Notes under the pieces: model-generated | Database searches by the model: none | What the model was told of the DNA's origin: nothing | The model's input: the letters and a program-made list of their open reading frames with translations, nothing else | Shown: in pieces, positions 37 to 59,778 of the stretch | Numbering within the stretch: position 1 is the stretch's first letter | How the letters are laid out: each line of letters starts with the position of its first letter | Virus record (IMG/VR): IMGVR_UViG_3300031965_000022 | Coordinates: 1-64,000 of that record | DNA from: a virus | Length of the DNA: 64,000 nucleotides | Reading direction: 5' to 3' (one strand) | Program-made: the position numbers and the translations under genes

Positions 37-62
37 GATGCAACCCCAGCTCTAGAGGTTGC
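37..62 (-). promoter_or_regulatory. near-copy of phage bipartite motif (CAACCT-N14-GCATC on minus strand)
   Basis: plus strand GATGC(37-41)-N14-AGGTTG(56-61); one mismatch to consensus; 19 nt upstream of ATG at 17. Confidence 0.4.
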
Positions 63-1289: not shown

Positions 1290-1618
1290 GCCTTTGCCTC
1301 CTTCTGCAAGCTCTTCAAGAGTGCGCAGCGTTCCTTCTCGGCCTTTTCCTCGTCAATCTCGAAGTATTCCGCCAAGAGGGTTGTAATAGGCCGATACACT
1401 GGTTGCCAGTGCGAGCCGGGACAAAAGCTCCCGCCGTCGCAAGGGCACTCTTTGATCTCTACATATTCCGCCAGGTGTATGCCCGCCGTTGGTAGCCACT
1501 CTAAAAACTCTCCAATTGCTTGCGACTCTTTGTGATGCGCCGCAATCTTGTCGAGTGTCGGTGTCCTGGGCGATTTAAGCTTTCCGGGAAGCATTGCCGT
1601 GTCGAATTTTCTTGTCAT
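1286..1618 (-). CDS. hypothetical protein
   Basis: ORF 1286..1741 trimmed to ATG 1618 (MTRKFD), which forms an ATGA overlap with stop of 1615..2445. Confidence 0.6.
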   Translation of the reverse strand: MTRKFDTAMLPGKLKSPRTPTLDKIAAHHKESQAIGEFLEWLPTAGIHLAEYVEIKECPCDGGSFCPGSHWQPVYRPITTLLAEYFEIDEEKAEKERCALLKSLQKEAKA

Positions 1619-2445
1619 GCCGCCACCTCCCGCAGTGCGGAGCCGTCCACGCACACAACCCCGGAGGATAGGCGAACCTCGTACATCCCGGACAACTGCC
1701 CCTCGCACACCTTGCCGATCGCGCCCTCGTAGCCGTTGCAAATAACACGGTCTCCGACGGCCCAGCGGCTTTTGCCGCTCTCTGCTAGCTCAATGGCGGC
1801 ACAGGCTGCGTCAATCTCAGGCCCATGCGTCCGGTTGTCGGTCGCCATGTCAAGCAACCCGCGAATCCCCGACAACAAACCGTCAAGGCGCGCTTGGTGC
1901 TTTCTGTGAATCTCGCCCCAGTTCACGCGGATATGTGCGGCAAGCCAGTGTTGTTTGCCGTCGTTAATATCGCCGGAGCATTCCGGGTTGCAAACCTGTT
2001 TCGGCTCATCCTCAATGGCGTACCTGTAGAGCACGTCGCAGGCTTCCTCAAATGCCTGCATGGATGCGAAGTACTGTCGGGAGGTAGTCGGCAGATCGTA
2101 CAGCCAAAAGTGACGGAATGGCCGTCCGTGCTCGACTGCCTTATTGACGGCTTCCTGGAGGATGCGGAACTTCCGTCCGTCCGCTTCCTTGCCCGTGGGG
2201 TTTACCTGGATAGCGTCTCCGGTCTCGAATTCATACCACTGATTCGAGTGAACCCGTAGCGTATAGGTTCCCTGGCCTGTCAAAAATAGCTTGCCGTCAG
2301 AGTCTTTTTCAAGGATTCTCCGGGCAAGTTCAACGTCCTCGATTGGCTCGGCTACAAAACCTCCATGAAGCGAGAATGAACGAACGTTTACCGCGCTCCG
2401 TAGGGCTGTTTTGGAGTGGCTTGAATTCTTTCGTATGCGTGTCAT
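1615..2445 (-). CDS. hypothetical protein
   Basis: ORF 1615..2613 trimmed to ATG 2445 (MTRIRKN); motif copy 2502-2527 lies 56 nt upstream. Confidence 0.65.
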   Translation of the reverse strand: MTRIRKNSSHSKTALRSAVNVRSFSLHGGFVAEPIEDVELARRILEKDSDGKLFLTGQGTYTLRVHSNQWYEFETGDAIQVNPTGKEADGRKFRILQEAVNKAVEHGRPFRHFWLYDLPTTSRQYFASMQAFEEACDVLYRYAIEDEPKQVCNPECSGDINDGKQHWLAAHIRVNWGEIHRKHQARLDGLLSGIRGLLDMATDNRTHGPEIDAACAAIELAESGKSRWAVGDRVICNGYEGAIGKVCEGQLSGMYEVRLSSGVVCVDGSALREVAA

Positions 2446-2497: not shown

Positions 2498-3061
2498 CTA
2501 GGATGCTTCCACCACCAACGGGGTTGTATCACCCAACCATGCAAGGGGAGGCATCTTTTGTTGTGATACTTCCCGGACGGGAAACCACACCTCCCCCTCC
2601 GGCCACGCCCCACCCCAACCCAGCCCCGGCTTTCCTTGCTGCATCCTTAAATTGCACACCCAACACACCGGCGTTACTTCCAAGGGCTTGAAATAATCCC
2701 GATGATCGTACACCTGAGCACGTTTTCCGCACCCCTGGGAACAAAACCCCCAAACAGTGTTGAGGTTCGGCAGCAGTCCCATTTTCACCGCCTTTGCCAC
2801 GCATTGATGCCCCCAATGCTGTAGCATTCCATAAGTCCACGGAAGCGTTCTCCAGGTGCTCGTCCCCGCTCCCTTACGAGGTACTAGCACTTTTACCTTT
2901 TTCTTGGCCCTCGACCCCCGTGAGGGTTCCATATACTTCACCCCACGCTGCGCGGCAGAAAGCATTTTGGGGGTTATGACAACCCCCTTAGCCTCCAAAC
3001 CCTGAAGCCACTTCATAGCAGCATACTCTCGCCCCCCACAGGGGAACCGAATTTGAATCAT
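2498..3061 (-). CDS. hypothetical protein, possible His-Me finger (HNH-like) nuclease
   Basis: C-x3-C ... DHRDY-x-KPL-x-V-x3-C-x2-CN resembles beta-beta-alpha-metal nucleases (recall only); GGAGG SD; sigma70-like promoter upstream. Confidence 0.45.
   Translation of the reverse strand: MIQIRFPCGGREYAAMKWLQGLEAKGVVITPKMLSAAQRGVKYMEPSRGSRAKKKVKVLVPRKGAGTSTWRTLPWTYGMLQHWGHQCVAKAVKMGLLPNLNTVWGFCSQGCGKRAQVYDHRDYFKPLEVTPVCWVCNLRMQQGKPGLGWGGAWPEGEVWFPVREVSQQKMPPLAWLGDTTPLVVEAS
2502..2527 (-). promoter_or_regulatory. phage bipartite motif CAACCC-N14-GCATC (candidate promoter)
   Basis: plus strand GATGC(2502-2506)-N14-GGGTTG(2521-2526); 56 nt upstream of ATG 2445. Confidence 0.6.
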
Positions 3062-3304: not shown

Positions 3305-4120
3305 CTACCCCTCCTCATTCTGAGAGACACGCTCCCACCACGGCGGGCGGTCCCACCATTCCACCTCTTCTTCCCCGTCGGACCAAAAATCGACCGCCGG
3401 GTCACGTACAACAGGCAAAGATGCCCAATCCACTTTACACAAGCGCTCAATTACACATTCCAGATAATCTACCGCAAGGGTTTCCTGTGGCCTATGCTCG
3501 CAAGCATACCCTATACCCAGATTGCTACACTCTGGGATTATCTCGGTGTAGTTCGCAGAGTCAGTGAAGGTGCCGCTCCCCGGCTTATGGCCCAAGCCGA
3601 GAGCCTCTGCCAAGCCGAGGGCAAACTCCAAAGAACAACAAGGCCCATTCCACTGCTCGACAATAACATCCTCCGCCCCGCGACGGTCTAAGGAAAGGCA
3701 AATGTCAAACTTTTCGAGGATATGCGGATAGTGATAAGCCAAGTAATCACTTCCCTTCCCGCCGATTTCTTCTGCTCGGTGAAAAATGACCGAGACCGGA
3801 GCCTCCGCCTGGATCATCCGCAGCGCTGCATACACTCCTGCGCCGTCATCCGCTCCCAGGCAGTTAGACACCCTCTCCTTCGGGTGGAGAGACACAACCC
3901 CCTTGCGCTCCTGAATGCGCTGCATTCCCTCCGAGCGATGGACTGTATCAGTATGGACCGCAATCATTGTGCGGCTACCCTCACGAAGAAACAAACGGTT
4001 CCCATACTCATCCCGCTGGATGCCCGGCACCGAATCAATGAGGTGTCGGACGAACCGCTCCTCAGTTTTGCTGTATGCCGGACGGCGATAGGCAAGAATT
4101 TCAGCTAGTAATGGGTTCAC
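3305..4120 (-). CDS. clan MH (M20/M28/M42-like) zinc metallopeptidase
   Basis: metal-ligand style motifs HTDTV, GADDGAG, AEEIGGKG, later D and H; GTG start in GTGA overlap with upstream stop. Confidence 0.7.
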   Translation of the reverse strand: MNPLLAEILAYRRPAYSKTEERFVRHLIDSVPGIQRDEYGNRLFLREGSRTMIAVHTDTVHRSEGMQRIQERKGVVSLHPKERVSNCLGADDGAGVYAALRMIQAEAPVSVIFHRAEEIGGKGSDYLAYHYPHILEKFDICLSLDRRGAEDVIVEQWNGPCCSLEFALGLAEALGLGHKPGSGTFTDSANYTEIIPECSNLGIGYACEHRPQETLAVDYLECVIERLCKVDWASLPVVRDPAVDFWSDGEEEVEWWDRPPWWERVSQNEEG

Positions 4121-5247
4121 CCAGACACCTCCTCTTCCTCTACTTCCTCTTCCGGCTCACAGGTACAATCCTCTACCAGATTCTCACACTCTCCGCAGCG
4201 CTCACACTCGCAGTCATCCGCCAGCTTTCCGCATTCCCCGCAACGCGAGCATCGGCAAGCGGAGAAACGAGCATCCACAACCTGGTCGCATTCTGGACAA
4301 TACTCGCAGTCACAGATATCGTGGGTGCGGCAATTTTCGCAGTGCTCGCAAATCGTGCAAGCCTCACAGTAAGGGTAGTAGTTCTCCTCGCAGCACTCGC
4401 AAAAACTACACTGACAATCATCCTCATCGCGGTCGCAGCGCTCGCATTGTAGGAGGTCGGCGGTACTAGCTGTACCGTCCGTCCGATCCCCAACATAATC
4501 ACCACCCTCAGATTCCACTACCCAATAACCCCCCCTGAGGGAAACACTCATTCCCCCATTATCCAGGTACGGCAAGACTTCATCTCCGTGGCGCAAGGGC
4601 AGACGATTCAATCGGCTCCCGGTTAGCTCGCCAAAATGATATCCCTGCTCGCCCAAAAGAGTCCGCAGCATAGAACAGTACGCCTCTGCACCTCCGACCG
4701 CATAAAGGCGCACGTATCGACTATCCTTTGTCGATACCACGGACCTGGCAACAATGTTACCGTATTGCATCAGGTACGCGACCGCCACGTCCGGGGAATC
4801 TGCATACACATGGTATGGCCTATGCTCCCAGGACGTAAATTTTCCGTGCATACAGGACACAGTTGTAGAGTCACACGGACACATCGCGGTCTCAAAGATG
4901 CGGTCAATGGTTTCCCTATCACTCGCAAACCGCAGCACGTACTCGTCTGCAGTCTCAACATAAGCCACGGCTGCGCGGAGTGCTACCACCCTCCGTTGTG
5001 TCTCACAGTCGCTCAGAGCGGGGAAGTACCTCTTTAGATACCTCCCGAACTTCATCCTCGTTTGCCGATCCCGCTCGCCATGCGGAGCGGAGGCAGTGAA
5101 GGCGACCATTTCGGGCGCACCATCCGTAGTAGATAGGTGTAGGAAGTGCTCTGGCTCAATTTCCAAACCACCCACCGCCTCCGAGGGAATCGGTTTGTAT
5201 TCCCCTGAGATGAGGCGGGCTTGTTCACGTGCCTGCCAAGGTTCCAT
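4117..5247 (-). CDS. hypothetical protein with extremely Cys-rich acidic C-terminal tail
   Basis: ORF 4117..5283; ATG 5247 (MEPWQ) follows a G10 SD-like run, alternative ATG 5283; last 109 aa hold 26 Cys, mostly as CxxC. Confidence 0.7.
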   Translation of the reverse strand: MEPWQAREQARLISGEYKPIPSEAVGGLEIEPEHFLHLSTTDGAPEMVAFTASAPHGERDRQTRMKFGRYLKRYFPALSDCETQRRVVALRAAVAYVETADEYVLRFASDRETIDRIFETAMCPCDSTTVSCMHGKFTSWEHRPYHVYADSPDVAVAYLMQYGNIVARSVVSTKDSRYVRLYAVGGAEAYCSMLRTLLGEQGYHFGELTGSRLNRLPLRHGDEVLPYLDNGGMSVSLRGGYWVVESEGGDYVGDRTDGTASTADLLQCERCDRDEDDCQCSFCECCEENYYPYCEACTICEHCENCRTHDICDCEYCPECDQVVDARFSACRCSRCGECGKLADDCECERCGECENLVEDCTCEPEEEVEEEEVSG

Positions 5248-5297
5248 TATTCCCCCCCCCCTTCGGTATGACGCTCGTACCATTTAGCGTTGTTGGG

Positions 5298-5394: not shown

Positions 5395-5420
5395 GATGCG
5401 CGGGTGCGTCGTGGGGTTGC
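5395..5420 (-). promoter_or_regulatory. phage bipartite motif CAACCC-N14-GCATC (candidate promoter)
   Basis: GATGC(5395-5399)-N14-GGGTTG(5414-5419). Confidence 0.55.
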
Positions 5421-8722: not shown

Positions 8723-9166
8723 TTAGAGACCTCTGCTCTTGATCGATACTGCATCCGCAATCCCCCACTCCTCAAGTGACAACAGCCGCCTACGAGCCCT
8801 GCCCCCTGCATGGGTCTTTGTGCTGTAGAATCTATTTAGGACTAATAGTTTCGTCTGTGTAATCAACACCGCATGTGGGGAACGACCCTCAAATCCTTCG
8901 TCTATGCGCCGCATCGTCTGCAAAAAGGTGTCCTGAGTGATGTCTTCCGCATCTGCCCAATTGTGCGTCATGCTCAGGGTGAAGTGGAGCACCCTAAGGT
9001 AAAGGGGCAGATACCGCACCTCAAACTCCTCACGTCGGCGCTTGTGCAGGCTTTGGGCCTCGGCCTTTCGTTCCAGGCGCTCCAGGTCAGAGGGCGGGGC
9101 GGGGGTAGCCCGACGGGGCTGGTGCTTGGACTTTCGGAGGCTGGCGAGGAAGTCGTTTTGGGTCAT
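8723..9166 (-). CDS. minimal sigma-70 family (ECF-like) sigma factor
   Basis: region 2 signature WADAEDITQDTFLQ followed by LITQTKLLVLNRF; short C-terminal LSLEEWGIADAVSIKSR resembles a truncated region 4 HTH; only 147 aa. Confidence 0.55.
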   Translation of the reverse strand: MTQNDFLASLRKSKHQPRRATPAPPSDLERLERKAEAQSLHKRRREEFEVRYLPLYLRVLHFTLSMTHNWADAEDITQDTFLQTMRRIDEGFEGRSPHAVLITQTKLLVLNRFYSTKTHAGGRARRRLLSLEEWGIADAVSIKSRGL

Positions 9167-9174
9167 CTTAAACC

Positions 9175-9345
9175 TTAGATGCTCCTCGGGGCCGTGGGGT
9201 TGTCTAGCCGAATGACCGAACCGTGACGCTCACACCGCCACCCAATCGGCTCATTGGCGGTGTTGTAGAGGCTGACAAAGCAGGGAGCGCCACAGTGGGG
9301 GCAGGGGCGGGCGTTGGGGTCGTGGACTTGGTGGATTTTATTCAT
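9175..9345 (-). CDS. small zinc-ribbon protein (56 aa, not in ORF track)
   Basis: MNKIHQVHDPNARPCPHCGAPC...WRCERH; TAATG coupling to 9345..9551; its 3' end contains motif copy 9178-9203. Confidence 0.45.
   Translation of the reverse strand: MNKIHQVHDPNARPCPHCGAPCFVSLYNTANEPIGWRCERHGSVIRLDNPTAPRSI
9178..9203 (-). promoter_or_regulatory. phage bipartite motif CAACCC-N14-GCATC directly upstream of the sigma gene
   Basis: GATGC(9178-9182)-N14-GGGTTG(9197-9202); 11 nt upstream of ATG 9166. Confidence 0.6.
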
Positions 9346-9775: not shown

Positions 9776-9992
9776 CACTTTGCTCCTTGATTACAATAAC
9801 TCGTAGGTCTGGGCCGGGAGATGTAGTTTCTACCAAAAATGTCACCCCCTCCGGAGAACCTTCAACCCCAACCAGGACAGCATCCTCCGGGAATCCCTCC
9901 AACACCTCAGTCCTCTTCTTTGGAGGCCACTTAGCCCCTGTTTGAAACAACTGCCTCAGCAACTCGAACGAGAATCGAAATTTAACGTGCAT
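9765..9992 (-). CDS. hypothetical protein
   Basis: ATG 9992 (GTG 9995 alternative) with AAGGAGG upstream, coupled to ATPase stop. Confidence 0.5.
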   Translation of the reverse strand: MHVKFRFSFELLRQLFQTGAKWPPKKRTEVLEGFPEDAVLVGVEGSPEGVTFLVETTSPGPDLRVIVIKEQSDET

Positions 9993-11005
9993 CACCCCTC
10001 CTTCCGCATCCTCCCACCCCCAAGATCGGTCACCAACCCCAGCCTCACCAGCCGGGTCCGCATGTTGTACGCGCTGGCCCGCGACAGCTTATCATCCCCT
10101 TCTAGGTCAGCGACCGTGAACTCCCCCGGCGGCAACATCCGCCACAGTTCCGCCTGCCGGTCAGTCAGCATCGCCGTGAGATCATCTTCCTCCCGTAGCG
10201 GTGCGGGTTTGAAGCCCGCGAGCTTCGGTTTCCCCTCTTCGTCCGACCCCAGGATCACACTTTCCAGCATCATCGGCTCCATATCCTCACCGCGTCTCCA
10301 CCCGTTGAAAAAGAAGATACGATCCCCTGCATCCCCTTTGTACTCCAACCCCAACCGCACATCGCTGCGGCTCTGAATCTCCATCCCCCCGGATGCCTCC
10401 TCCAGCCAATCCCGAGGGTCCTTAATCAACGAAGGTTGCTGCGCGGCAATCCTAGACTTCTTTCTGGTGTTGAAGGTAAACACGAAGGTCAACCCTGGGT
10501 AGGTGCGGTGCAGCATCCGACACCACTTATACACCACCATAATGTGCATTCCCTTCTTAGTGTCCACCGGAAAGAACATATTGAAGGGGTCTACCATAAC
10601 TACCGCATCGGGTTTTGCCGCCACCTTCGACTCCAGCCACTTCATCCTTTCGTCCATTGACTTTGCCAGCACGTTTAGCAATTCAGCGGTGGAGACGTTC
10701 TCGTCACTACCGGCCTCCAGGAACATCTCCACCGTTGCGGGGTCATCTGGCGGAGTCAAGCTGTGGCGCTCCCCCATTGCAGCCCACCCACGCCAAAAGG
10801 CCCATGCCGGGGTTTCGTGTGCGAGCATCAACACCGGACGGCGCTGCACCCGCCGACCGCACCACCGCAACCCGGTGGTGAGGCAAAAGGCCCACTCCGC
10901 CAGCAACGGCGACTTCCCCGCCCCAAAGGTTCCTGAAATGGTGACAAGCTGGGCCTCTCGAAAGATACCCTCAATCAATTCGATGCGCGGTGGCGGAACG
11001 ATCAC
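9992..11005 (-). CDS. P-loop ATPase, RecA/DnaB-like (AAA_25-type), C-terminal wHTH-like segment
   Basis: Walker A GTFGAGKS in the context typical of RepA/AAA_25 ATPases; GTG start with AAGGAG 5 nt upstream. Confidence 0.7.
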   Translation of the reverse strand: MIVPPPRIELIEGIFREAQLVTISGTFGAGKSPLLAEWAFCLTTGLRWCGRRVQRRPVLMLAHETPAWAFWRGWAAMGERHSLTPPDDPATVEMFLEAGSDENVSTAELLNVLAKSMDERMKWLESKVAAKPDAVVMVDPFNMFFPVDTKKGMHIMVVYKWCRMLHRTYPGLTFVFTFNTRKKSRIAAQQPSLIKDPRDWLEEASGGMEIQSRSDVRLGLEYKGDAGDRIFFFNGWRRGEDMEPMMLESVILGSDEEGKPKLAGFKPAPLREEDDLTAMLTDRQAELWRMLPPGEFTVADLEGDDKLSRASAYNMRTRLVRLGLVTDLGGGRMRKEG

Positions 11006-11021
11006 TCAGACTCCTTAACCC

Positions 11022-11050
11022 TTGACATCTTTGCGGGGATGTGGTATGTT
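11022..11050 (+). promoter_or_regulatory. sigma70-like promoter candidate for the plus-strand block
   Basis: TTGACA (11022-11027), 17-nt spacer, TATGTT (11045-11050), in the gap between the divergent blocks. Confidence 0.4.
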
Positions 11051-11068: not shown

Positions 11069-11530
11069 ATGAGCCAACCCCACCTCCCCAGCGAGTGGTG
11101 GCCCGAGACCATCCGCATAATCGTCGAAGAGGGCCTGACGCCCCTTCCCGGTGAAACCAACGGCCAATTTGTCATCCGAGCTAACACCCTTGCAGGCTAC
11201 AACACTCCCGAAGAGGATGTCAAGGCCGCGTCCCGCAGCCGCATGTGGCGTGAGCATCTCGACGCGGCGATGAAAAGCCATTATGTCCACCTCTACCAAA
11301 CCGTGGCGCAGGATAAGGCCATCGCCGTTGGCCGGATGACCGCTCTGTCGATGAAGCTGGAGCGCCAAGGTAAAACCAAGGACGCCCTTGATGGCCTCGC
11401 CAGCGTCATCAAAGCTGAGGGGGCCATCGACTCGGATTCACTGCTCGACGCTTTGTCGGGCACGGCCCTCCAGAAAGCCCTCACCGAGGTCAGGGAGCGG
11501 AAAGCCGTGAAGGTTGAGAAGGTCAACTAA
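11069..11530 (+). CDS. hypothetical protein (small terminase possible by position only)
   Basis: ORF 11039..11530 trimmed to ATG 11069 because 11039 lies inside the candidate promoter. Confidence 0.5.
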   Translation: MSQPHLPSEWWPETIRIIVEEGLTPLPGETNGQFVIRANTLAGYNTPEEDVKAASRSRMWREHLDAAMKSHYVHLYQTVAQDKAIAVGRMTALSMKLERQGKTKDALDGLASVIKAEGAIDSDSLLDALSGTALQKALTEVRERKAVKVEKVN

Positions 11531-11704: not shown

Positions 11705-11926
11705 CTAAAAAGGGCGGACGATGATCTCCACCCGGTTGAGCTTGTCGGCGTACTTCTCCGGCACCGCACGGGCCGCCCGCATCGCCACTTCTTCCTGTGA
11801 TTGGGATAGGGTTGCGGCAATAGGTACCACGATCTCCGACGGTGGGGTGGTATCGTTCCCTGCCGCATCTTTTAACTCCTTGTGGTGAAACAAAACTGCG
11901 TATTGAAACAACTTTGACTGTGCCAT
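11705..11926 (-). CDS. hypothetical protein (73 aa), lone antisense gene inside the plus-strand block
   Basis: ATG 11926 (MAQSKLFQYAVLFH...VRPF) with AAGGAGG 6 nt upstream; motif copy 12033-12058 upstream. Confidence 0.6.
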   Translation of the reverse strand: MAQSKLFQYAVLFHHKELKDAAGNDTTPPSEIVVPIAATLSQSQEEVAMRAARAVPEKYADKLNRVEIIVRPF

Positions 11927-12032: not shown

Positions 12033-12058
12033 GATGCCCCGTTCCCTTTGGGGGTTGC
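12033..12058 (-). promoter_or_regulatory. phage bipartite motif CAACCC-N14-GCATC (candidate promoter)
   Basis: GATGC(12033-12037)-N14-GGGTTG(12052-12057); 106 nt upstream of ATG 11926. Confidence 0.6.
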
Positions 12059-12407: not shown

Positions 12408-13952
12408 ATGTTTTCAACCTCCGACTCCGACTTACTTTCGCAAATCACCTCAGGGGCTAAAGATGAGTCCGAAGAGGAAGCTCGACTTATTATAGCCGAG
12501 AGTTTACGCCGTGACAAGAAATTTGTTGCATACTGGGAACCTTGTGGGGATCAGGTTAAGTTCTGGGAGCAACTGAGGCCGGAGCAAAAGGTCTGGTTGG
12601 TTCTTGGGGGTAATCGGGCAGGCAAGTCCGATTTAGGATGCTTTCTTATTACGGCGTGGTTATTGGGGAAAGACTACTTCCGCGACGAGGTAAACTGGAG
12701 GTGGGTAGAGCCTTTACCCATCCCTGAAGGTCCTGTCAACGTCCGCTCTGTTGGACTCAACAGCGATCTTTTGAAGGACCCCCTGTGGGAGAAATTGACA
12801 GCATCCACCGATCATCCCCCATTCTTTCCTAAGAACGCCCTCAAATCTAAATCAGATCATCAAATCAGCGCCCGATTCAAACGCGGCAGCAAATATACAG
12901 GGAAGTCAGCAGATGTAGACCCCCGAACCCACGGTGGTCCCTCGTGTCATTTAGTCCACTTAGATGAGGAATGCACCAAGGCCATATACGACGAATCGTA
13001 CCAGCGTACTGTGTCTACAGGAGGTAAACTTTTGGTGACAGCTACCCCCCTGCTCGATGTTGCAACCACCCAACAACCCTGGCTCTACGATCTCGTTGAA
13101 GAGTGGAAGGTGGGCAATCCCGAAATTGGAGTGGTGCTGATGTCTGCGTTGAACAACCCCCACACCCCTGAGGCAGAAAAAAGGAAACTATTAACCAAGT
13201 GGAGGGGCCATCCAGAGGAACGAGCTAGACTCTATGGAGAGTTTTTCCAACGAAGTGGGAGGTACTATTCAGGGTGGAAGTCCGAACCCCCACTCTGGGT
13301 CCCCGCCCACGACATCCCTCCGGACCACATGCGGGTGGTAATGATCGACCCGGCTGTCACCGGCTACGTCGGGGCGCTATGGGCTGCCATCAGCCCCAAA
13401 GGAAAGATGAGTCTCTACCGTGCCTACAAGGAAAAGGGCCGCACAGTCTCCCAGCATGTGGAGGCTATTCTCACCGAGAACCGGGGCGACCCCATCCGCA
13501 TCTGGGCCTGTGACCCGTTCATGGGCCGCCAGCGGGTCCCCGACGCCCAGCTTAAGGAGGATTACAAAACAGTCCTCCAGGTGTGGCGGGAAGCGGGCTT
13601 GAGCCGCCTCATCTACCCCGATCTCGACTACACCCGCGCCCTTGCAGCCTCTCACGAGTACATGGATGCGGCCTTTGACCCCACACACCCACACCCGCCG
13701 GTTGAGGTTTTCGACCACCTCAGCGAGTGGGAGTGGGAAATCAGCCGCTACGTCATTGACGCTGTGGCCCAGGGGCCGAATCGGGGTGCTGTGCGGGACC
13801 GCCCCCGCAAGGGCCGTGACGGTTCCTCAACCCTCATGGAGTGTTATCAGTATCTCTGTGGGATGCGGTTGCGGGCTCCAGCAGAATCTCCCCGGCCAAG
13901 GCCGCAGCGCCCAATGGTCCGCACCAAACCGTGGGGGGATGAGACGTGGTGA
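12408..13952 (+). CDS. terL: terminase large subunit
   Basis: Walker A GGNRAGKS, Walker B-like HLVHLDEE, C-terminal nuclease-like half; 514 aa. Confidence 0.85.
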   Translation: MFSTSDSDLLSQITSGAKDESEEEARLIIAESLRRDKKFVAYWEPCGDQVKFWEQLRPEQKVWLVLGGNRAGKSDLGCFLITAWLLGKDYFRDEVNWRWVEPLPIPEGPVNVRSVGLNSDLLKDPLWEKLTASTDHPPFFPKNALKSKSDHQISARFKRGSKYTGKSADVDPRTHGGPSCHLVHLDEECTKAIYDESYQRTVSTGGKLLVTATPLLDVATTQQPWLYDLVEEWKVGNPEIGVVLMSALNNPHTPEAEKRKLLTKWRGHPEERARLYGEFFQRSGRYYSGWKSEPPLWVPAHDIPPDHMRVVMIDPAVTGYVGALWAAISPKGKMSLYRAYKEKGRTVSQHVEAILTENRGDPIRIWACDPFMGRQRVPDAQLKEDYKTVLQVWREAGLSRLIYPDLDYTRALAASHEYMDAAFDPTHPHPPVEVFDHLSEWEWEISRYVIDAVAQGPNRGAVRDRPRKGRDGSSTLMECYQYLCGMRLRAPAESPRPRPQRPMVRTKPWGDETW

Positions 13953-13982: not shown

Positions 13983-14012
13983 TGTCAAGTATTCCTTGAC
14001 ACTTTCTGTCAA
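13983..14012. promoter_or_regulatory. overlapping palindromes TGTCAAG-N5-CTTGACA-N5-TGTCAA (operator-like)
   Basis: 13983-13989 / 13995-14001 / 14007-14012; half-site TGTCA/TGACA also seen at 3176-3212. Confidence 0.45.
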
Positions 14013-14055
14013 ACCCTCGACACCACAACATCTTGCGCCCTTTGGAACTATCCCC

Positions 14056-14084
14056 TTGACAACCCCCAAAATATGTGATACGCT
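14056..14084 (+). promoter_or_regulatory. sigma70-like promoter candidate (extended -10)
   Basis: TTGACA (14056-14061), 17-nt spacer ending TGA, TACGCT (14079-14084); GGAGG and GTG 14117 downstream. Confidence 0.35.
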
Positions 14085-14116
14085 TGGTACTGGGATTGTA
14101 ACAGGGTGGAGGCCCG

Positions 14117-17358: not shown

Positions 17359-17435
17359 GCCCCGCTAGCTCCAAATGATAGAGCGGGGGTTTTGTAAACC
17401 CTAGGTTCCTGGTTTGAATCCAGGGCGGGGCTCCA
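17359..17435 (+). tRNA. tRNA-Thr (anticodon UGU), CCA encoded
   Basis: hand-folded cloverleaf: acceptor GCCCCGC/GCGGGGC, D stem GCTC/GAGC, anticodon stem GGGGT/ACCCT, loop TTTGTAA, T stem CCTGG/CCAGG, discriminator T plus CCA; D loop lacks GG and T loop is TTTGAAT. Confidence 0.75.
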
Positions 17436-43635: not shown

Positions 43636-44418
43636 CTAAGGTTCCCCCTCCCACACTCTCGGCATCTTCTTGACGCTCTCACCGTCCATTGCAGGTAGCG
43701 CCCACACCACGTCTGCGGAGGCCCGCAGCACCGGGTCGGGACGGATGCCTCGGCGCTGCTTGGCGCACCGGCCCGCCTTGATGATCTCCCAGAACTTGGC
43801 ACCGCCGGACCACGCCGCCCAAGCACGGCGTCCATTCCTCGCTGACAAGCCCATCCACCGCTTTAGCGCCGGGCCGCTCAAGGGCGACGCCTGGGACACC
43901 ACCTCTGCAAGATGGTAGAGGTCGTCACGCATCGGCGCAACCGCAAAAAGGTCGTCCCGCGTCGCCGTTTGCACCCGCCGCAAGTTCCACCCCCAGATAA
44001 AACCGAGTAGGAAGACCAGCCGTTGGTGCGGGAGAGTCATGCGCCGCCCGACGGCTAGGCCGCGTTCCTCCCACTCCAAGGTGTGGTCAGCGGCGCGGTG
44101 ACGAAGCCCAAGGGTGTAGCCGCAGCGCCGTATCTCTGGGATATAAAGAGCCATGCCGAAGCGGATGTTGGACCATTCCAGGAAGGCGCGAAGGTGCTTG
44201 GAGGCTTGGAATTTGGCTGAGGCGGTGGGGTGGCTATCGAGCCAGATGTCGGTGTGGGCCGGGGCGATCTCGTCCATCCACCCAGAGAAGAGGGATTCGG
44301 AGAAGCGGCGGATGGTCGCCCGACGCATCATCTGCATGTAAGGGCTGAGGGGCTTCTGACGACACCACGCGAGGTGCTGGTTGGCAGCGCGGGTGGTGGA
44401 GATGCGGGGGAGAGTCAA
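43636..44418 (-). CDS. hypothetical protein
   Basis: TTG start with GGAGGA SD; integrase-like features judged insufficient. Confidence 0.55.
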   Translation of the reverse strand: MTLPRISTTRAANQHLAWCRQKPLSPYMQMMRRATIRRFSESLFSGWMDEIAPAHTDIWLDSHPTASAKFQASKHLRAFLEWSNIRFGMALYIPEIRRCGYTLGLRHRAADHTLEWEERGLAVGRRMTLPHQRLVFLLGFIWGWNLRRVQTATRDDLFAVAPMRDDLYHLAEVVSQASPLSGPALKRWMGLSARNGRRAWAAWSGGAKFWEIIKAGRCAKQRRGIRPDPVLRASADVVWALPAMDGESVKKMPRVWEGEP

Positions 44419-48022: not shown

Positions 48023-48048
48023 GATGCCCCGGCGCTCAGTGGGGTTGT
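48023..48048 (-). promoter_or_regulatory. phage bipartite motif CAACCC-N14-GCATC (candidate promoter)
   Basis: GATGC(48023-48027)-N14-GGGTTG(48042-48047). Confidence 0.6.
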
Positions 48049-50807: not shown

Positions 50808-50833
50808 GATGCCCCGGAGGCCGTCGGGGTTGC
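50808..50833 (-). promoter_or_regulatory. phage bipartite motif CAACCC-N14-GCATC (candidate promoter)
   Basis: GATGC(50808-50812)-N14-GGGTTG(50827-50832). Confidence 0.6.
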
Positions 50834-51023: not shown

Positions 51024-53669
51024 TCAGATGCCCCGAAGACCATCCGGGTTGTCCGGCGACCACTCCGCCAAGTTCCGTCCCACCTTGCCCTCCGCGCCGA
51101 TGCTGAGGCCGCCCAGTTGAGGCCACGCTTGGGTGAAGCCTTGTTGCAGGACCGCCACGGCGTCCGGCACCTGTGCGTCCGGCACCTCCGCCGCAATCTC
51201 GTCGTGGATGATGAGCCGCAGCAAAGCCACCAACCAGGGGTGATGCTCTGCGACCCACAGCAGCACCTCTGTCTGGATGCCCGAGGCTGTGCCCTGGGGC
51301 TTGAAGGCGATGCACCGCTTGGCATCGTCGCCTAGCCGCCACTTCCCATACTTCTTGTCATAGGTGAAGACGTTGTAAAACTCATGCCAATAACCCACAG
51401 GAGTCTTTAACACATGCTCCTTATGCGCAAGTGTCAGCGTGGCATTCTGCCAACGTACTACGTCCTTGCCGGGGTCGGTGTTGAAGTACAAGTCCTGAAG
51501 GTCCTTCGCTTCCTTTTCGTTGCGGAAGTGCTCAGGATATTCCTCAAATATGCGCCCCGGCGTACCCTTGTAGTTTGAAAGGTGGACGACACGTTTTATC
51601 ATCTCCCTCTCAACCGGAAATGCCTTCTTGATGGCCTTGCACCGGGCGCGGAGTTCCTCATCCGGCAGATCAAGGGGAATTGGTTGCCCCACCTTCACAG
51701 AAGTAACCCAGTCATGGACGCCCATCTTGGCGAGACGGATGTACCGCGCCGATCCCGCAAAGTAACCCACCAGGACGGCCTCAATGGCTGAGGAGTCAAA
51801 GGCTACAAATTGGTGTCCTGGGGCAGCAACGATCATCCGCCGGAACTGTTGGGCCAAATCTGACCGCTTCGGAATGTTCTGCGAGTTGACCTGATAACTA
51901 TTCTTACGCCATGTACTGGGGTTGAAGCCGTAGTGGGTCCAGATGCGGATGCAGGTCTTGGGGCCATCGGGGGACTCATGGGCCTCCTCGGGGCCGCCCC
52001 AAATGTAGGTGGTCAACATCTTGTTCGACTCTCGACAGTCGAGGAGGGTGCGGAACGCCGGGTGTTTGTGCACCAACTTCTTCAGATGCTTGGCCTCGGT
52101 GGTCGCTTTTTGCTCCCGATGGTTCATGGGCACTGGCAACCTCAGCGCCTTGATAAGCGCCACTACCTGCTGCGACGAGTGGGGGTTAAAGGGCTTCAGC
52201 CACCCCATGTGCCCATCTTGCTCTACAAGGTGGACATGGCTCAACAGGGTATCACGGATTACCGGGGGTAACTCCTTGGCCTTGGAGCCCAAGACACCAA
52301 GCGGAGGCACTGCCCCAGCCTTGGGCGGCTTCTTGTATCCATTCTTGGGGTGGAGGTTGCGAGCCTGAGCAGGCACCATGCTCTGAAGGGCATCCACATC
52401 GGCCACATACCGCGCCTCCACCTTCTCCCGGAACCGATCCTGTTCAGCCTTGTCGATAAGAAATCCAGGCCGCGTCATCTGCACCAAAATCTCATCCGTC
52501 TCTACACAATGCCGCCAGAAGGCTTCCCACCTGCCCTCGGCCCGCAAGCGCTCCTCGGTGTAGCGGCGGATGGCGTTTTGGATAACGTGATCCATTCCGT
52601 TGTAGTAGGCTGGGGACTCCGATGAAAGCTGTTTCCACGGTGGCCCGTTGTGGACCAGTGGCGCAACGAAGCCCAGCGCCTTTGGCAGGTCGCTCTTGTA
52701 GAAGTGCCACATCCACATCCCAGAGGCCCATCGTCGTGCCTTGAGCCCCGCCTTGGTCAGCCGCACAGAGTCGAAGTGGCGGTTGGTCCATTCCCAGCAG
52801 GTCGTGGCCCGACCCATCACCTCTGCAAGGATGTCGATGTACGGCCACTCATAGGGGAAACTGACCGCTACCCCCGGCTCCAGCGCAAACCCAGCGCGGA
52901 TGATGTTAAAGCTGCTGTCGCGGGTCTCCCCCGGAAGCTCATCCTCTTCGGCCTCCACATCTAGGTCGATGTCATCCTCATCCAGGTCAGCAGACTCCGG
53001 GGTCTCAATGTCGATGTCCACATCCCCAAGGTCAACGGGGAAGAGGTCAAGGTAGGTTCTGAGGTCGCTCGGTGTGGGGTCAAGGATCAACTGGTACTGT
53101 GACGGCTCATAGGTGCCGTTGGCGATCCGCTGCGCCCGCTTGAGGGCCACAAGGATCATTGGGGAGAGCTTCTGCTTCCCCTGCAACACATAGCTGGGGT
53201 GGAAGGTGGGGACAGCCGGGATGCCCCACACCGACTCATGGACGTATCCTTGAGCCTTCTCGATGCCGCTGATGCCACAGGCTCGGCCCAGAGCCACATT
53301 ACCCATTGGGACGATCACCCGAGGTTTGCGCTCCTCCACAAGTTGGTCGAGGTAGGGGCGGCAGTGCTGAAGGGAGGCATAGGCGTCGGGGGTGCGGTTG
53401 GCGTTGTCGGTCCACCCTAACTTTGGGGGCTTACACCACATGGAGTTAGCGGTGGTGACAGCCCGACGGTCAAGGCCCAGCCACTTCAGCCACTTTCCTT
53501 CATAGAGGTGGCCCGCCGCGCCGCTGAAGTTACGGTTTGCGGCCATCTCATCCCGCCAAGGGCTGTCGCCCAGGAAGAGGATGCCGCTGGAGCCATCCCC
53601 GTCAGCTTGGATGAACCGCTCACCGTGGGGTTGGTTGGGGCAGCCGCCGCAGATGGGGCCGGTTGGCAT
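51024..53669 (-). CDS. family A DNA polymerase fused to N-terminal UDG-like domain and 3'-5' exonuclease domain
   Basis: pol motifs A (FDSSAIEAVL), B (KRVVHLSNYKG), C (IIHDEIA); exo motifs DIET and WTNRHFD; N-terminal family-4-UDG-like GILFLGDSPW ... FHPSYVL. Confidence 0.9.
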   Translation of the reverse strand: MPTGPICGGCPNQPHGERFIQADGDGSSGILFLGDSPWRDEMAANRNFSGAAGHLYEGKWLKWLGLDRRAVTTANSMWCKPPKLGWTDNANRTPDAYASLQHCRPYLDQLVEERKPRVIVPMGNVALGRACGISGIEKAQGYVHESVWGIPAVPTFHPSYVLQGKQKLSPMILVALKRAQRIANGTYEPSQYQLILDPTPSDLRTYLDLFPVDLGDVDIDIETPESADLDEDDIDLDVEAEEDELPGETRDSSFNIIRAGFALEPGVAVSFPYEWPYIDILAEVMGRATTCWEWTNRHFDSVRLTKAGLKARRWASGMWMWHFYKSDLPKALGFVAPLVHNGPPWKQLSSESPAYYNGMDHVIQNAIRRYTEERLRAEGRWEAFWRHCVETDEILVQMTRPGFLIDKAEQDRFREKVEARYVADVDALQSMVPAQARNLHPKNGYKKPPKAGAVPPLGVLGSKAKELPPVIRDTLLSHVHLVEQDGHMGWLKPFNPHSSQQVVALIKALRLPVPMNHREQKATTEAKHLKKLVHKHPAFRTLLDCRESNKMLTTYIWGGPEEAHESPDGPKTCIRIWTHYGFNPSTWRKNSYQVNSQNIPKRSDLAQQFRRMIVAAPGHQFVAFDSSAIEAVLVGYFAGSARYIRLAKMGVHDWVTSVKVGQPIPLDLPDEELRARCKAIKKAFPVEREMIKRVVHLSNYKGTPGRIFEEYPEHFRNEKEAKDLQDLYFNTDPGKDVVRWQNATLTLAHKEHVLKTPVGYWHEFYNVFTYDKKYGKWRLGDDAKRCIAFKPQGTASGIQTEVLLWVAEHHPWLVALLRLIIHDEIAAEVPDAQVPDAVAVLQQGFTQAWPQLGGLSIGAEGKVGRNLAEWSPDNPDGLRGI
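51027..51052 (-). promoter_or_regulatory. phage bipartite motif CAACCC-N14-GCATC (candidate promoter) inside the last codons of the polymerase gene
   Basis: GATGC(51027-51031)-N14-GGGTTG(51046-51051). Confidence 0.6.
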
Positions 53670-53992
53670 CAATACACCTCATACCAAAAACGTATAATTG
53701 GAGGCTCCATATAGACTGCCACAACAGAGCACGGGGCCTCAACCCGCCGGGAAGCCTTTCTTAGTGTCGCCCCAGTCATCACCGCTGTATCTACAACTAG
53801 GACAGGGTGGAGCTTCGCACTCCGCACGCTGCGGCAAGGAACCCACGGTATCTTGAGGAAGTGGGAGGCGTACACTGAGGCTACCGCGCCGCTTCGACCA
53901 GGACCCGTAACGCACTTGAATCGTCCCCGGAGAGGCTGCAAAACCTCATAAAGAGCCTTACGGAACTCCGGCTCGGAGATGATGAGGGACAT
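53669..53992 (-). CDS. mini phosphoribosyltransferase-like protein (107 aa)
   Basis: PRPP-loop-like VLVVDTAVMTGATL and GPGRSGAVAS; translationally coupled to the polymerase gene. Confidence 0.5.
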   Translation of the reverse strand: MSLIISEPEFRKALYEVLQPLRGRFKCVTGPGRSGAVASVYASHFLKIPWVPCRSVRSAKLHPVLVVDTAVMTGATLRKASRRVEAPCSVVAVYMEPPIIRFWYEVY

Positions 53993-58018: not shown

Positions 58019-58263
58019 CGTTGTCTCCTTTGAGTTCGGTCATTTTGGTTTGATGCCCCCACCGCTGCGGGGGTTGCCTTTCTCTCTCTCCAGATTGCAG
58101 CCACCACTAAACCCGATTTAACAGCCCAACACACTGTACGGTACGGCATCGAATACAAAAACCCAAAGTGCATTGGTTTTTGCCCCCACATAACAAACTG
58201 ATTGTGATCTAACCATCGTTGTAGGTGGGCAAGGTCGTCAAATTTAGCCGCACGGGTATACAT
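58015..58263 (-). CDS. hypothetical protein
   Basis: ATGA overlap downstream; its 3' end contains motif copy 58052-58077. Confidence 0.5.
   Translation of the reverse strand: MYTRAAKFDDLAHLQRWLDHNQFVMWGQKPMHFGFLYSMPYRTVCWAVKSGLVVAAIWRERKATPAAVGASNQNDRTQRRQR
58052..58077 (-). promoter_or_regulatory. phage bipartite motif CAACCC-N14-GCATC (candidate promoter)
   Basis: GATGC(58052-58056)-N14-GGGTTG(58071-58076). Confidence 0.6.
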
Positions 58264-58923: not shown

Positions 58924-58949
58924 GATGCCCCCAACGCTGCGGGGGTTGC
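58924..58949 (-). promoter_or_regulatory. phage bipartite motif CAACCC-N14-GCATC (candidate promoter)
   Basis: GATGC(58924-58928)-N14-GGGTTG(58943-58948); 22 nt upstream of GTG 58901. Confidence 0.6.
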
Positions 58950-59240: not shown

Positions 59241-59408
59241 TTACCCCGACCGCGACCGCGACCCCGACCCCGGCCCCGACCACGACCACGACCGCGACCG
59301 CGACCGCGACCACGACCCCGACCCCGACCACGACCGCGACCACGACCGCGACCACGACCACGACCCCGACCGCGACCACGACCACTTCTGCCTCTTTCCT
59401 CTACGCAT
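59241..59408 (-). CDS. 55-aa basic leader plus (Ser-Xaa)23 repeat peptide, Xaa = Trp/Arg/Gly
   Basis: ATG 59408 six nt after AGGGGG and 10 nt after the upstream TAA; MRRGKRQK then WSWSRSGSWSWSRSWSRSWSGSGSWSRSRSRSWSWSGPGSGSRSRSG; followed by the SD of the next gene. Confidence 0.45.
   Translation of the reverse strand: MRRGKRQKWSWSRSGSWSWSRSWSRSWSGSGSWSRSRSRSWSWSGPGSGSRSRSG
59244..59384. repeat. hexanucleotide tandem repeat (plus CCNCGA; minus TCG-NGG), ~23.5 units
   Basis: read directly; only one position of the hexamer varies (N = T/C/G on the minus strand), plus one T-to-C change. Confidence 0.95.
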
Positions 59409-59418
59409 CGCTACCCCC

Positions 59419-59778
59419 TTAACGCAACCCCTCATCTGTGGAGGGAGGTGTAGGCTCTGGCATCTTAAGGGCGCGGATTTTCCCAGCAAGTAACAACCGA
59501 TAAGAGTTCCCTTGGGGATTATCGGTATCACCAACGAACTTCGCCGCCGCCTCAATCGCGGCCTCCCAGGTCTCACGGCGGGCTTGAGCTTCGCGTACAA
59601 CCCAACCACTGTCAAAGGCATTCGTGACCTTCGCCTTCCAAGTTTCGTCACGTTCTTCGATGAGTTGCTGCCGCTTGTCGAGCAGTGAACGTAGCCATAC
59701 GCGGCAGCGGTTGGACACTGTGCAATCATTGTCCAGAGCCGCCTCGATCTTCCGCACCATCTCTTCAGTGACTTTCAT
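59419..59778 (-). CDS. hypothetical protein
   Basis: ATGA overlap with upstream stop. Confidence 0.6.
   Translation of the reverse strand: MKVTEEMVRKIEAALDNDCTVSNRCRVWLRSLLDKRQQLIEERDETWKAKVTNAFDSGWVVREAQARRETWEAAIEAAAKFVGDTDNPQGNSYRLLLAGKIRALKMPEPTPPSTDEGLR

What the first reader, a model, noticed from the sequence alone, without database searches (positions are those of the whole stretch)
8723..9203. Minimal ECF-like sigma factor whose own start lies 11 nt below a motif copy, suggesting autoregulation
The 147-aa product carries a clear sigma-70 region 2 signature, ADAEDITQDTFLQ...LITQTKLLVLNRF. Its region 4 is only a stub (LSLEEWGIADAVSIKSR), which makes it smaller than typical ECF sigmas. 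A perfect CAACCC-N14-GCATC copy at 9178-9203 sits immediately upstream of its ATG at 9166. It lies inside the 3' end of a 56-aa zinc-ribbon ORF at 9175..9345. Positive autoregulation is the classic arrangement for ECF sigmas. No phage RNA polymerase gene is visible in this window. The simplest model is that this sigma redirects host core RNAP to the motif-bearing genes for replication, nucleotide metabolism and accessory functions. With only 11 nt between motif and ATG, the sigma mRNA would be nearly leaderless.
Basis: partly seen in the sequence, partly recalled or inferred. Interest (0 to 1): 0.65.

Follow-up and report, generated by a model that had tools for sequence, protein, structure and literature searches.

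The report
Phage sigma-like protein lacking region 4
A soil phage encodes a 147-residue protein that is only the RNA-polymerase-binding half (σ2) of an ECF-type sigma factor. Its gene sits 11 nt behind one of ten copies of a promoter-like DNA motif. It belongs to a rare, undescribed family of minimal sigma-like proteins, but whether it reads that motif is unproven.

Summary
ORF 8723..9166(-) encodes a 147-aa protein with a genuine sigma-70 region 2 (Pfam 27 bits against a cut-off of 24; own σ2 HMM E=1e-20; AF2 pLDDT ≥95 over residues 21-115; best folds are ECF σ2 domains). Region 4 is absent. The C-terminal 'stub' matches no σ4 model, and no σ4, RNAP or HTH partner was found in any frame of the window.

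The protein belongs to a family of only eight sequences (106-147 aa, all σ2-only, all complete genes in syntenic phage contigs). This family is cleanly separated from canonical two-domain ECF sigmas.

The motif is real and larger than described: CAACC(C/T)-N14-GCATCnnA, with 9 exact copies and 1 near copy. All ten lie on the minus strand in the non-structural modules, 11-106 nt upstream of start codons. It is not a hairpin, not explained by coding constraint and not σ70-like. Its geometry is ECF-like (AAC-N17-CAT).

The link between protein and motif is inference only. A σ2-only protein cannot read a -35-like half by any known route. The family has lost hallmark region 2.3/2.4 residues. Relatives show neither the motif nor a promoter in front of their sigma gene.

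Verdict: a new σ4-less variant of phage ECF-like sigmas. The autoregulation model is plausible but untested.

The parts
8723..9166 (-). Gene for a 147-aa σ2-only, ECF-derived sigma-like protein. Residues 1-26 are a basic N-terminal extension, 27-117 are the four-helix σ2 domain, and 118-147 are a linker-like tail.
9178..9202 (-). Motif copy CAACCCCACGGCCCCGAGGAGCATC, 11 nt upstream of the sigma ATG. The invariant A follows at 9175 (within the TAA stop).
9175..9345 (-). 56-aa zinc-ribbon ORF (CPHC...CERH) whose last nine codons carry the motif. A small ORF occupies this position in all relatives, and it is a zinc ribbon in 5 of 7.
12033..12057 (-). Motif copy in non-coding DNA at the head of the minus-strand block, 106 nt before the 73-aa gene 11705..11926.
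5395..5419 (-). Motif copy, 37 nt before AGGAGG + ATG.
2502..2526 (-). Motif copy overlapping the 3' end of ORF 2498..3061, 56 nt before the 276-aa gene 1615..2445.
37..61 (-). Tenth copy with one mismatch (CAACCT), followed by ttA, GAGGAGG and an ATG 20 nt downstream, beyond the window's left edge.
48023..48047 (-). Motif copy in intergenic DNA, 24 nt before an ATG.
50808..50832 (-). Motif copy, 20 nt before an ATG. dCMP deaminase and Dam methylase genes lie downstream.
51027..51051 (-). Motif copy in the last eight codons of the UDG-PolA gene, 21 nt before the next ATG.
58052..58076 (-). Motif copy, 33 nt before an ATG. It heads the run of genes leading to RNA ligase, HNH and PolA.
58924..58948 (-). 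Motif copy in intergenic DNA, 22 nt before a GTG start.
12489..12517 (-). σ70-type promoter-like site TTGTCA-17-TATAAT (11 of 12) pointing into the minus-strand block. It is a candidate host-dependent promoter that could supply the first sigma transcripts.
   Evidence: This is a consensus match only.
9992..11005 (-). AAA_25 helicase/primase-like gene. It is the conserved synteny anchor upstream of the sigma gene in relatives L006, L008 and L010.

Best explanation
ORF 8723..9166(-) encodes a minimal sigma-like subunit descended from an ECF sigma by loss of everything after the start of the σ2-σ4 linker. It keeps the region 2.1/2.2 surface that docks on the β' clamp helices of host core RNA polymerase. 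The phage has no polymerase of its own. The most likely role is to act as the specificity factor, or an essential part of it, for the ten-copy promoter-like motif CAACC(C/T)-N14-GCATCnnA. That motif heads the phage's replication, recombination and nucleotide-metabolism genes and the sigma gene itself. In this model σ2 reads the downstream half (gGGGCATCnnA) as a -10-like element. The upstream AAC-containing half, which σ4 normally reads, would be read by an unidentified partner or contact. This follows the logic of T4 gp55 plus co-activators, or of MotA-type sigma appropriation. First transcripts of the gene would come by read-through from a host-type promoter upstream, with translation coupled to the zinc-ribbon ORF. 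After that, the copy 11 nt before the ATG would give positive feedback from a nearly leaderless mRNA.

Shown: the σ2 domain, the absence of σ4, the family and its synteny, and the motif's reality, orientation and placement. Inferred: core binding, motif recognition, the partner, the start sites and autoregulation.
For: σ2 identity: Pfam Sigma70_r2 scores above its gathering cut-off. More than 25 NCBIfam ECF models match region 2 only. PHROG 1740, 'RNA polymerase sigma factor', matches. PDB ECF sigmas match. My own σ2 HMM gives E=1.2e-20 and hits nothing else in the window. The AF2 model has pLDDT >=95 over residues 21-115. The top Foldseek hits are σ2 domains of M. tuberculosis SigH/SigL in RNAP complexes, SigR and SigC, and phage ECF sigmas in BFVD.

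The truncation is natural and conserved. Eight family members of 106-147 aa score >=119 bits, against <=56 bits for canonical 165-257 aa ECFs. They are complete genes followed directly by the next gene.

The core-binding helix is as conserved as in canonical ECFs (0.71 against 0.71; D72, A73, E74, D75, Q78, L82 and R86 are kept).

Motif: there are 9 exact copies against 0.05 expected, plus a tenth copy. All are co-directional with the genes, and none lies in the 31-kb structural block. The distance to the start codon is 11-106 nt, with a median of about 22 nt. The motif occurs in three reading frames and in non-coding DNA. It forms no consistent hairpin and matches no Rfam family.

The motif is unlike the σ70-type sites that the same phage carries elsewhere. 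Its geometry, AAC-N17-CAT, resembles ECF promoters (AAC at -35, CGT at -10; PMC8103513). It also resembles the conserved GGAACC-N17-CAT element upstream of the closest cellular ECF genes. There is no phage RNAP and no second sigma.
Against: There is no σ4 anywhere, yet the motif has a fixed-spacing upstream half. Near-invariant canonical residues of regions 2.3/2.4 are lost in the family: W100 (61 of 65 canonical, 1 of 8 family), N107 (59 of 65, 1 of 8), I104, R114 and F91. The DNA-melting and -10-reading surface is therefore either re-tooled or defunct. No relative carries this motif, any recurrent bipartite motif, or a promoter-like gap before its sigma gene. No partner was identified. No transcript data are available. 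A terminator-like hairpin at 11733-11712 lies between the candidate host-type promoter and the sigma gene.
Confidence: 0.4

Rival explanations
1. The protein is an RNAP-core-binding modulator and not a promoter-specificity factor. In this reading the σ2-only protein occupies the β' clamp-helix site to displace or block host sigma factors (host shut-off or tuning). The motif would be read by something else.
For: Conservation is concentrated in helix 1 and the region 2.2 core-binding helix. The hallmark residues of regions 2.3/2.4 are lost and that helix is variable (0.43 against 0.59 in canonical ECFs). σ4 is missing. Relatives have the protein but no shared motif.
Against: It leaves a ten-copy non-σ70 promoter-like motif without a reader in a phage with no RNAP and no other sigma. 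A variable region 2.4 is equally what diverging promoter specificity would produce. T4 gp55 is also highly divergent yet works as a sigma (PMC3152322).
Confidence: 0.22
2. The motif is a host ECF-type promoter read by a full-length host ECF sigma (σ4 on CAACC, σ2 on GCATC). The phage σ2 fragment would help indirectly, for example as a decoy that titrates the host anti-sigma factor and frees that ECF sigma.
For: The bipartite, fixed-spacing AAC-N17-CAT geometry is what a two-domain ECF sigma reads (PMC8103513). The closest cellular ECF group has a conserved GGAACC-N17-CAT element about 66 nt upstream of its own gene. This reading resolves the missing-σ4 paradox.
Against: The host is unknown, and no host genome with the motif was found. 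The cellular upstream element comes from four closely related contigs, so its conservation is weak evidence. Anti-sigma domains normally clamp σ2 and σ4 together (my own knowledge), and no phage precedent is known to me.
Confidence: 0.15
3. The motif is not a promoter. It could be an operator for a phage DNA-binding regulator, or an RNA-level element beside the ribosome-binding site. Its position before the sigma gene would then be incidental.
For: Several copies sit right at gene junctions, with the Shine-Dalgarno sequence starting 7-12 nt after GCATC. Six copies have CCCC/GGGG complementarity.
Against: Folding gives no consistent structure (z from +1.0 to -1.5). Three copies lack the complementarity. 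The halves are asymmetric with a non-conserved spacer of fixed length, and strict co-orientation with genes is typical of promoters. No Rfam family matches.
Confidence: 0.13
4. The ORF is a decaying remnant of a once full-length ECF sigma gene and has no function.
For: It is truncated relative to every canonical relative, and some hallmark residues are lost.
Against: Eight proteins sharing only 27-35% identity end at the same point and keep nine invariant residues and a shared tail motif R-R-R-F-V-P-L-D/E. Gene position is conserved across diverged phages. The open frames are intact.
Confidence: 0.05

Closest known systems
Canonical ECF (group 4) sigma factors
   Same: Homologous σ2 domain with the DAEDxxQ core-binding helix. 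The associated motif has ECF-like AAC ... N17 ... C(A/G)T geometry. A motif copy lies in front of the protein's own gene, as in autoregulated ECFs (PMC8103513).
   Different: No σ4 at all, whereas ECFs are defined by σ2 plus σ4. No anti-sigma gene alongside. Hallmark residues W, N and R of regions 2.3/2.4 are lost. It is 106-147 aa against 165 aa or more.
T4 gp55 late sigma (with gp33 and the gp45 clamp)
   Same: A phage-encoded, region-2-only sigma-like subunit for host core RNAP that needs other proteins in place of σ4 (PMC3152322). This is the best functional analogy.
   Different: No detectable sequence relationship to gp55. T4 late promoters are a single 8-bp -10-type element, whereas this motif is bipartite. 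In T4 the targets are late structural genes, whereas here the motif marks replication and nucleotide-metabolism genes and is absent from the structural block. No gp33- or clamp-like partner was found.
SigO-RsoA two-subunit sigma of Bacillus subtilis
   Same: σ2 and σ4 functions sit on separate small proteins, and the σ2-bearing subunit is very small (PMC8103513, PMC7826278).
   Different: That system has a co-transcribed σ4-bearing partner. No σ4-like ORF exists in any frame of this window.
Other phage ECF-like sigmas (BFVD hits such as Pseudoalteromonas phage RIO-1 and Agrobacterium phage Atu_ph04; phage sigmas with only a σ2 Pfam hit noted in PMC7826278)
   Same: Divergent phage-borne ECF-type σ2 domains. 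Some are annotated from σ2 alone.
   Different: Those proteins are 143-295 aa, long enough for a cryptic σ4. This family ends about 15-30 residues after region 2.4.

Membership tests
ECF (group 4) sigma factor | σ2 domain (regions 2.1-2.4) | tested here: met
   Pfam PF04542 scores 27 bits against a cut-off of 24. Own σ2 HMM gives E 1.2e-20. AF2 and Foldseek match ECF σ2 structures.
ECF (group 4) sigma factor | σ4 domain (regions 4.1-4.2, the -35 reader) | tested here: not met
   There is no Sigma70_r4 or r4_2 hit even at E<=10. All NCBIfam ECF models align to their N-terminal halves only and score far below their cut-offs. The σ4 HMM does not hit the ORF. Only 30 low-confidence residues follow σ2.
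ECF (group 4) sigma factor | No σ3 domain, and a σ2-σ4 linker under 50 residues | tested here: inconclusive
   No σ3 was found. The tail aligns with the start of the canonical linker (RRRxP/VxLxD) but leads nowhere.
ECF (group 4) sigma factor | Target promoters with AAC at -35 and CGT at -10 | tested here: inconclusive
   The candidate motif has AAC, then 17 nt, then CAT. The geometry is similar but the -10 triplet differs, and recognition is untested (PMC8103513).
ECF (group 4) sigma factor | Co-transcribed anti-sigma factor | tested here: not met
   The neighbours are small ORFs with no anti-sigma domain hits in Pfam or PHROGs.
ECF (group 4) sigma factor | Positive autoregulation | not testable with these tools
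   A motif copy lies 11 nt upstream of the ATG. No expression data exist. The arrangement is absent in relatives.
T4 gp55-type late sigma | Sequence or profile homology to gp55 | tested here: not met
   The only PHROG hit is phrog_1740, and Pfam, NCBIfam and PDB hits are all ECF-type. No gp55 family or structure appears among them.
T4 gp55-type late sigma | Single -10-type promoter element upstream of late (structural) genes | tested here: not met
   The motif is bipartite and absent from the structural block. Neither half-site occurs alone before plus-strand genes.
T4 gp55-type late sigma | Co-activator (gp33-like) and sliding-clamp dependence | not tested
   No clamp or gp33 homologue was seen in the Pfam and PHROGs scans. 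Functional dependence cannot be tested here.
Split sigma (SigO-RsoA type) | Small σ2-bearing subunit | tested here: met
   The family is 106-147 aa and σ2-only.
Split sigma (SigO-RsoA type) | Co-encoded σ4-bearing partner | tested here: not met
   The σ4 HMM run on all six frames of the window plus 1.3 kb beyond it gives no credible hit. No HTH family appears in the Pfam scans.

The most novel reading that the evidence does not exclude
This would be the smallest natural sigma: a 106-147-aa σ2-plus-linker module that forms a working holoenzyme on a bipartite promoter without any σ4. The -35-like half would be read by a non-homologous small partner. Candidates are the zinc-ribbon protein encoded immediately upstream (a zinc ribbon holds that position in 5 of 7 relatives, and one is fused to the C-terminus of the sigma in two family members) or the protein's own basic N-terminal extension. 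That would make it a naturally split, re-engineered ECF sigma.
Probability: 0.15. Interest if true: 0.8.

Novelty: new variant of a known kind. Interest (0 to 1): 0.55.

Why it matters
Sigma factors are defined by two DNA-reading domains. Only a handful of natural systems (T4 gp55, SigO-RsoA) do without one of them or split them. A conserved phage family that keeps only σ2 and the first residues of the linker, paired here with a ten-copy ECF-like bipartite motif, poses a directly testable question: what reads the -35 half? If the protein is a sigma, it sets a new lower size limit and points to a new kind of σ4 substitute. That would be of interest for transcription mechanism and for compact orthogonal expression parts. 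If it is a core-binding decoy or an anti-sigma decoy, it is a new phage takeover device. Either way, annotation pipelines that call it 'ECF sigma factor' are over-reading a single-domain hit.

Tried and rejected
1. RNA hairpin or terminator reading of the motif: rejected. The nine folds have z-scores from +1.0 to -1.5 and different structures, and there is no Rfam family.
2. Coding constraint as the cause of motif conservation: rejected. The copies lie in three frames and in non-coding DNA.
3. The region-4 'stub': rejected.
4. A split-off σ4, second sigma or phage RNAP elsewhere: none found.
5. The same or an analogous motif in the seven relatives' contigs: none found. Those contigs are short, 0.6-11 kb.
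6. IMG/VR scans with the family profile and the AAA_25 profile: no relatives.
7. IMG/VR scan with the exonuclease profile: 57 loci that share only that gene, with no family member and no motif.
8. Motif scans of viral contigs and bacterial genomes: only single chance hits in unrelated DNA. The host remains unknown.
9. Metagenome-contig scan with the family profile: it returned only canonical cellular ECFs because the peptide pattern was generic.
10. RNA runs: none available.
11. Strain variation from other soil and sediment runs: the contigs are identical low-coverage pieces, so there is no information on constraint.
12. Cultured-phage relatives: only about 25% identity to capsids of Bacillus and Microbacterium phages.
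13. σ70-type promoter scan: counts are not above shuffles overall, although TTGAC(A/T) is enriched in intergenic DNA.

Full report
CONTEXT. The window is almost all of a phage genome of about 66 kb and 57% G+C. It recurs in many soil and sediment metagenomes. Plus-strand genes at 12.4-43.6 kb are structural: terminase, portal or adaptor, major head protein and tail fibre. Minus-strand genes at 1-12.1 kb and 43.6-64 kb encode non-structural functions. These include an AAA_25 helicase/primase-like protein, an exonuclease, DUF4326, a UDG-PolA fusion, RNA ligase, HNH, dCMP deaminase, Dam-type methylases and a PD-(D/E)XK nuclease. No RNA polymerase was found by Pfam or PHROGs in any large ORF. The phage therefore depends on host RNAP. 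The host is unknown, and the nearest cultured phages are only about 25% identical in the capsid protein.

THE OBSERVATION. The one correction is that the motif copy is at 9178-9202. The motif is highly non-random, with 9 exact copies against 0.05 expected, all on the minus strand. The consensus is (a/g)gCAACC(C/T)C ... gGGGCATCnnA, with an invariant A three bases after GCATC. A tenth copy with one mismatch lies at 37-61 and is followed by GAGGAGG and an ATG. Every copy points the same way as the genes and lies 11-106 nt (median about 22 nt) upstream of a start codon. In four copies the Shine-Dalgarno sequence begins 10-12 nt after GCATC. None occurs in the 31-kb structural block, and neither half-site occurs alone upstream of structural genes.

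WHAT THE MOTIF IS NOT. It is not a conserved hairpin. The nine copies fold differently, with z-scores from +1.0 to -1.5. It matches no Rfam family. Coding constraint does not explain it. It overlaps the ends of upstream ORFs in three different frames and also lies in non-coding DNA at 12057, 48047 and 58948. It is not σ70-like. The phage does carry σ70-type sites elsewhere: TTGTCA-17-TATAAT at 12517-12489(-), TTGACA-17-TATGTT at 11022-11050(+), and by eye TTGACA-N17-TACGCT near 14056(+). TTGAC(A/T) is also enriched in intergenic DNA, with 13 of 62 occurrences in 6.2% of the sequence. A bipartite, asymmetric, fixed-spacing and gene-co-oriented element is best read as a promoter for an alternative holoenzyme. 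Its geometry is AAC-N17-CAT, which resembles the ECF hallmark of AAC at -35 and CGT at -10 (PMC8103513). The closest cellular ECF genes carry a conserved GGAACC-N17-CAT element about 66 nt upstream of their own start. That is a weak hint, because those four contigs are closely related to each other.

WHAT THE PROTEIN IS. Sigma70_r2 passes Pfam's curated threshold and is the only Pfam family found even at E<=10. NCBIfam ECF models all match through their N-terminal halves and fall far below their full-length cut-offs. PHROG 1740 and PDB ECF sigmas also match residues 27-120. With a 73-sequence alignment, AlphaFold2 gives pLDDT >=95 for residues 21-115, forming four helices (27-51, 53-67, 70-89, 97-117). 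The tail 118-147 scores only 56-65. The top structural matches are σ2 domains of M. tuberculosis SigH and SigL in transcription-initiation complexes, the SigR N-terminal fragment (TM 0.76, rmsd 1.7 A) and SigC, plus phage ECF sigmas in BFVD. Region 4 is absent. An HMM built from the σ4 domains of 65 canonical relatives hits nothing credible in any of the six frames of the window, or in the 1.3 kb beyond its left edge. The σ2 HMM hits only this ORF.

A SMALL, RARE FAMILY. An exhaustive HMMER search of 1.8 billion representatives and two profile searches of 5.8 billion proteins found only seven relatives: P0003, P0004, P0005, P0006, P0023, P0025 and P0026 (106-131 aa). They score >=119 bits against the family profile. 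The next hits score <=56 bits and are canonical 165-257-aa ECFs with both domains. The contigs carrying these relatives show complete genes followed at once by the next gene, so the short length is natural. Synteny is conserved: divergent terminase, AAA_25 gene, small ORFs, an ORF of 39-68 aa, the sigma gene, and in L010 the same exonuclease afterwards. The family ends about 15-30 residues after region 2.4. Its shared tail, R-R-R-F-V-P-L-D/E, aligns with the start of the canonical σ2-σ4 linker. This points to descent from a two-domain ECF by loss of σ4. The ORF just upstream is a zinc ribbon in 5 of 7 relatives, though with no detectable sequence similarity among them. In P0006 and P0025 a CxxC...CxxC ribbon is fused to the sigma's C-terminus.

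WHICH SURFACES ARE KEPT. The region 2.2 helix that canonical sigmas use to bind the β' clamp helices is as conserved in the family as in canonical ECFs (mean top-residue frequency 0.71 in both). D72, A73, E74, D75, Q78, L82 and R86 are retained. Helix 1 is more conserved in the family than in canonical sequences (0.65 against 0.46), with H41, R44, F48 and L55 invariant. Near-invariant canonical residues in regions 2.3/2.4 are mostly lost. These are W100 (61 of 65 canonical, 1 of 8 family), N107 (59 of 65, 1 of 8, mostly Asp in the family), I104, R114 and F91. That helix is variable in the family (0.43 against 0.59). Core binding is therefore well supported by inference. Promoter melting and -10 reading are either re-tooled and lineage-specific, or lost.

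LINKING PROTEIN AND MOTIF. For the link: the phage has no RNAP and exactly one sigma-like gene. It has a ten-copy non-σ70 motif with ECF-like geometry in front of its middle-type genes and of the sigma gene itself. Against the link: a σ2-only protein has no known way to read the upstream half. The melting residues are not canonical. No relative shows this motif, any recurrent bipartite motif, or even a gap before its sigma gene, which overlaps or abuts the upstream ORF. Wider searches for co-occurrence also failed. The family, the AAA_25 gene and the motif all draw blanks or chance hits in IMG/VR and in bacterial genomes. There are no RNA data and no strain variation to exploit. I therefore rate the sigma-for-this-motif model as the single most likely explanation, at about 0.4. 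Three live alternatives follow: a core-binding modulator, a helper of a host ECF sigma (for example an anti-sigma decoy), or a motif unrelated to the protein.

AUTOREGULATION AND LEADERLESS mRNA. If transcription starts 7-9 nt after GCATC, as in ECF promoters (my own knowledge of solved ECF initiation complexes), the sigma mRNA from its own copy would have a leader of 2-4 nt. The weak AAGG upstream of the ATG would then be present only on read-through transcripts from the zinc-ribbon ORF. Bootstrapping needs another promoter. The 11-of-12 σ70-type site at 12517-12489(-) is a candidate, but a terminator-like hairpin at 11733-11712 intervenes. All of this is inference.

COMPARISON AND NOVELTY. 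The protein works most like T4 gp55 (region 2 only, needing helpers; PMC3152322) or the σ2 subunit of the split SigO-RsoA sigma (PMC8103513). By descent it is an ECF derivative. It fails ECF membership on σ4 and on the anti-sigma partner. It fails gp55 membership on homology and promoter type. It fails the split-sigma pattern on the missing σ4 partner. Reviews note that phage ECF-like sigmas were excluded from ECF classifications, and that some phage sigmas show only a σ2 Pfam hit (PMC7826278). I found no description of a conserved family of 106-147 aa that ends just after region 2.4. I class it as a new variant of a known kind, with interest 0.55.

Noticed in passing
window 50808-50832 and 51027-51051 (-): The spacers of these two motif copies differ at four positions, all spaced three bases apart. 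In one frame both read N-P-D-G-L-R-G-I-stop. That frame is real for the PolA C-terminus (51027 copy), but at the other copy it is only a 35-codon open stretch. This may reflect a duplicated promoter, or it may be unexplained coding constraint.
   Followed up: partly
window 59243-59385, inside ORF 59241..59729 (-): A tandem repeat (6-nt unit ACCACG, 24-nt super-unit, about 24 copies) encodes a W/S/R/G-rich low-complexity stretch (SWSWSRSGSWSW...). It attracts large numbers of unrelated metagenomic contigs.
   Followed up: partly
window 4117-5283 (-): This 388-aa protein has an extremely Cys-rich C-terminal third (dozens of CxxC/CxC motifs, e.g. CERCDRDEDDCQCSFCECCEENYYPYCEACTICEHCENC...). It has no Pfam or PHROG match and lies just downstream of the motif copy at 5395.
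   Followed up: no
window 51024-53672 (-): A family-A DNA polymerase is fused to an N-terminal uracil-DNA-glycosylase-superfamily domain (882 aa).
   Followed up: no
window 11069-11530 (+), with 11022-11050 (+): A lone plus-strand gene (153 aa, no family match) is embedded in the minus-strand block. It has its own σ70-type site, TTGACA-17-TATGTT with an upstream TG, and converges on a terminator-like hairpin at 11712-11733. It may be a regulator.
   Followed up: partly
window 13983-14085 (+): Between the terminase gene and the next gene lies an inverted repeat TGTCAAGTATTCCTTGACA, followed by TTGACA-N17-TACGCT. The -35 hexamer overlaps CAACCCCCAAA, which is identical to the first 11 bases of the motif copy at 12057.
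   Followed up: no
window 17359-17435 (+): A tRNA-Thr (TGT) gene lies in the structural block. It is the only Rfam or ARAGORN hit in the window.
   Followed up: yes
59-kb JGI contig carrying P0023 (no DNA available); L006/L011: The P0023 phage has a second Sigma70_r2-only gene (197 aa) 4 kb upstream, also preceded by a 56-aa ORF, plus an integrase. P0006 and P0025 carry a C-terminal CxxC...CxxC zinc ribbon fused to σ2.
   Followed up: partly
L018, L020, L022, L023 (about 66 nt upstream of the ECF gene start): The closest canonical cellular ECF sigmas (45% identity over σ2) share an upstream GGAACC-N17-CAT element, similar in geometry to the phage motif.
   Followed up: partly
L010 3900-4640: A non-coding stretch in this relative's contig contains repeated ACTGCG...GCGCAC and ACCTA...GTAG units. 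It may be an origin or a regulatory array.
   Followed up: no
window 43636-44418 (-): A 260-aa ORF at the end of the minus-strand block looks by eye like a tyrosine recombinase or integrase. It has no Pfam or PHROG hit at the thresholds used.
   Followed up: no
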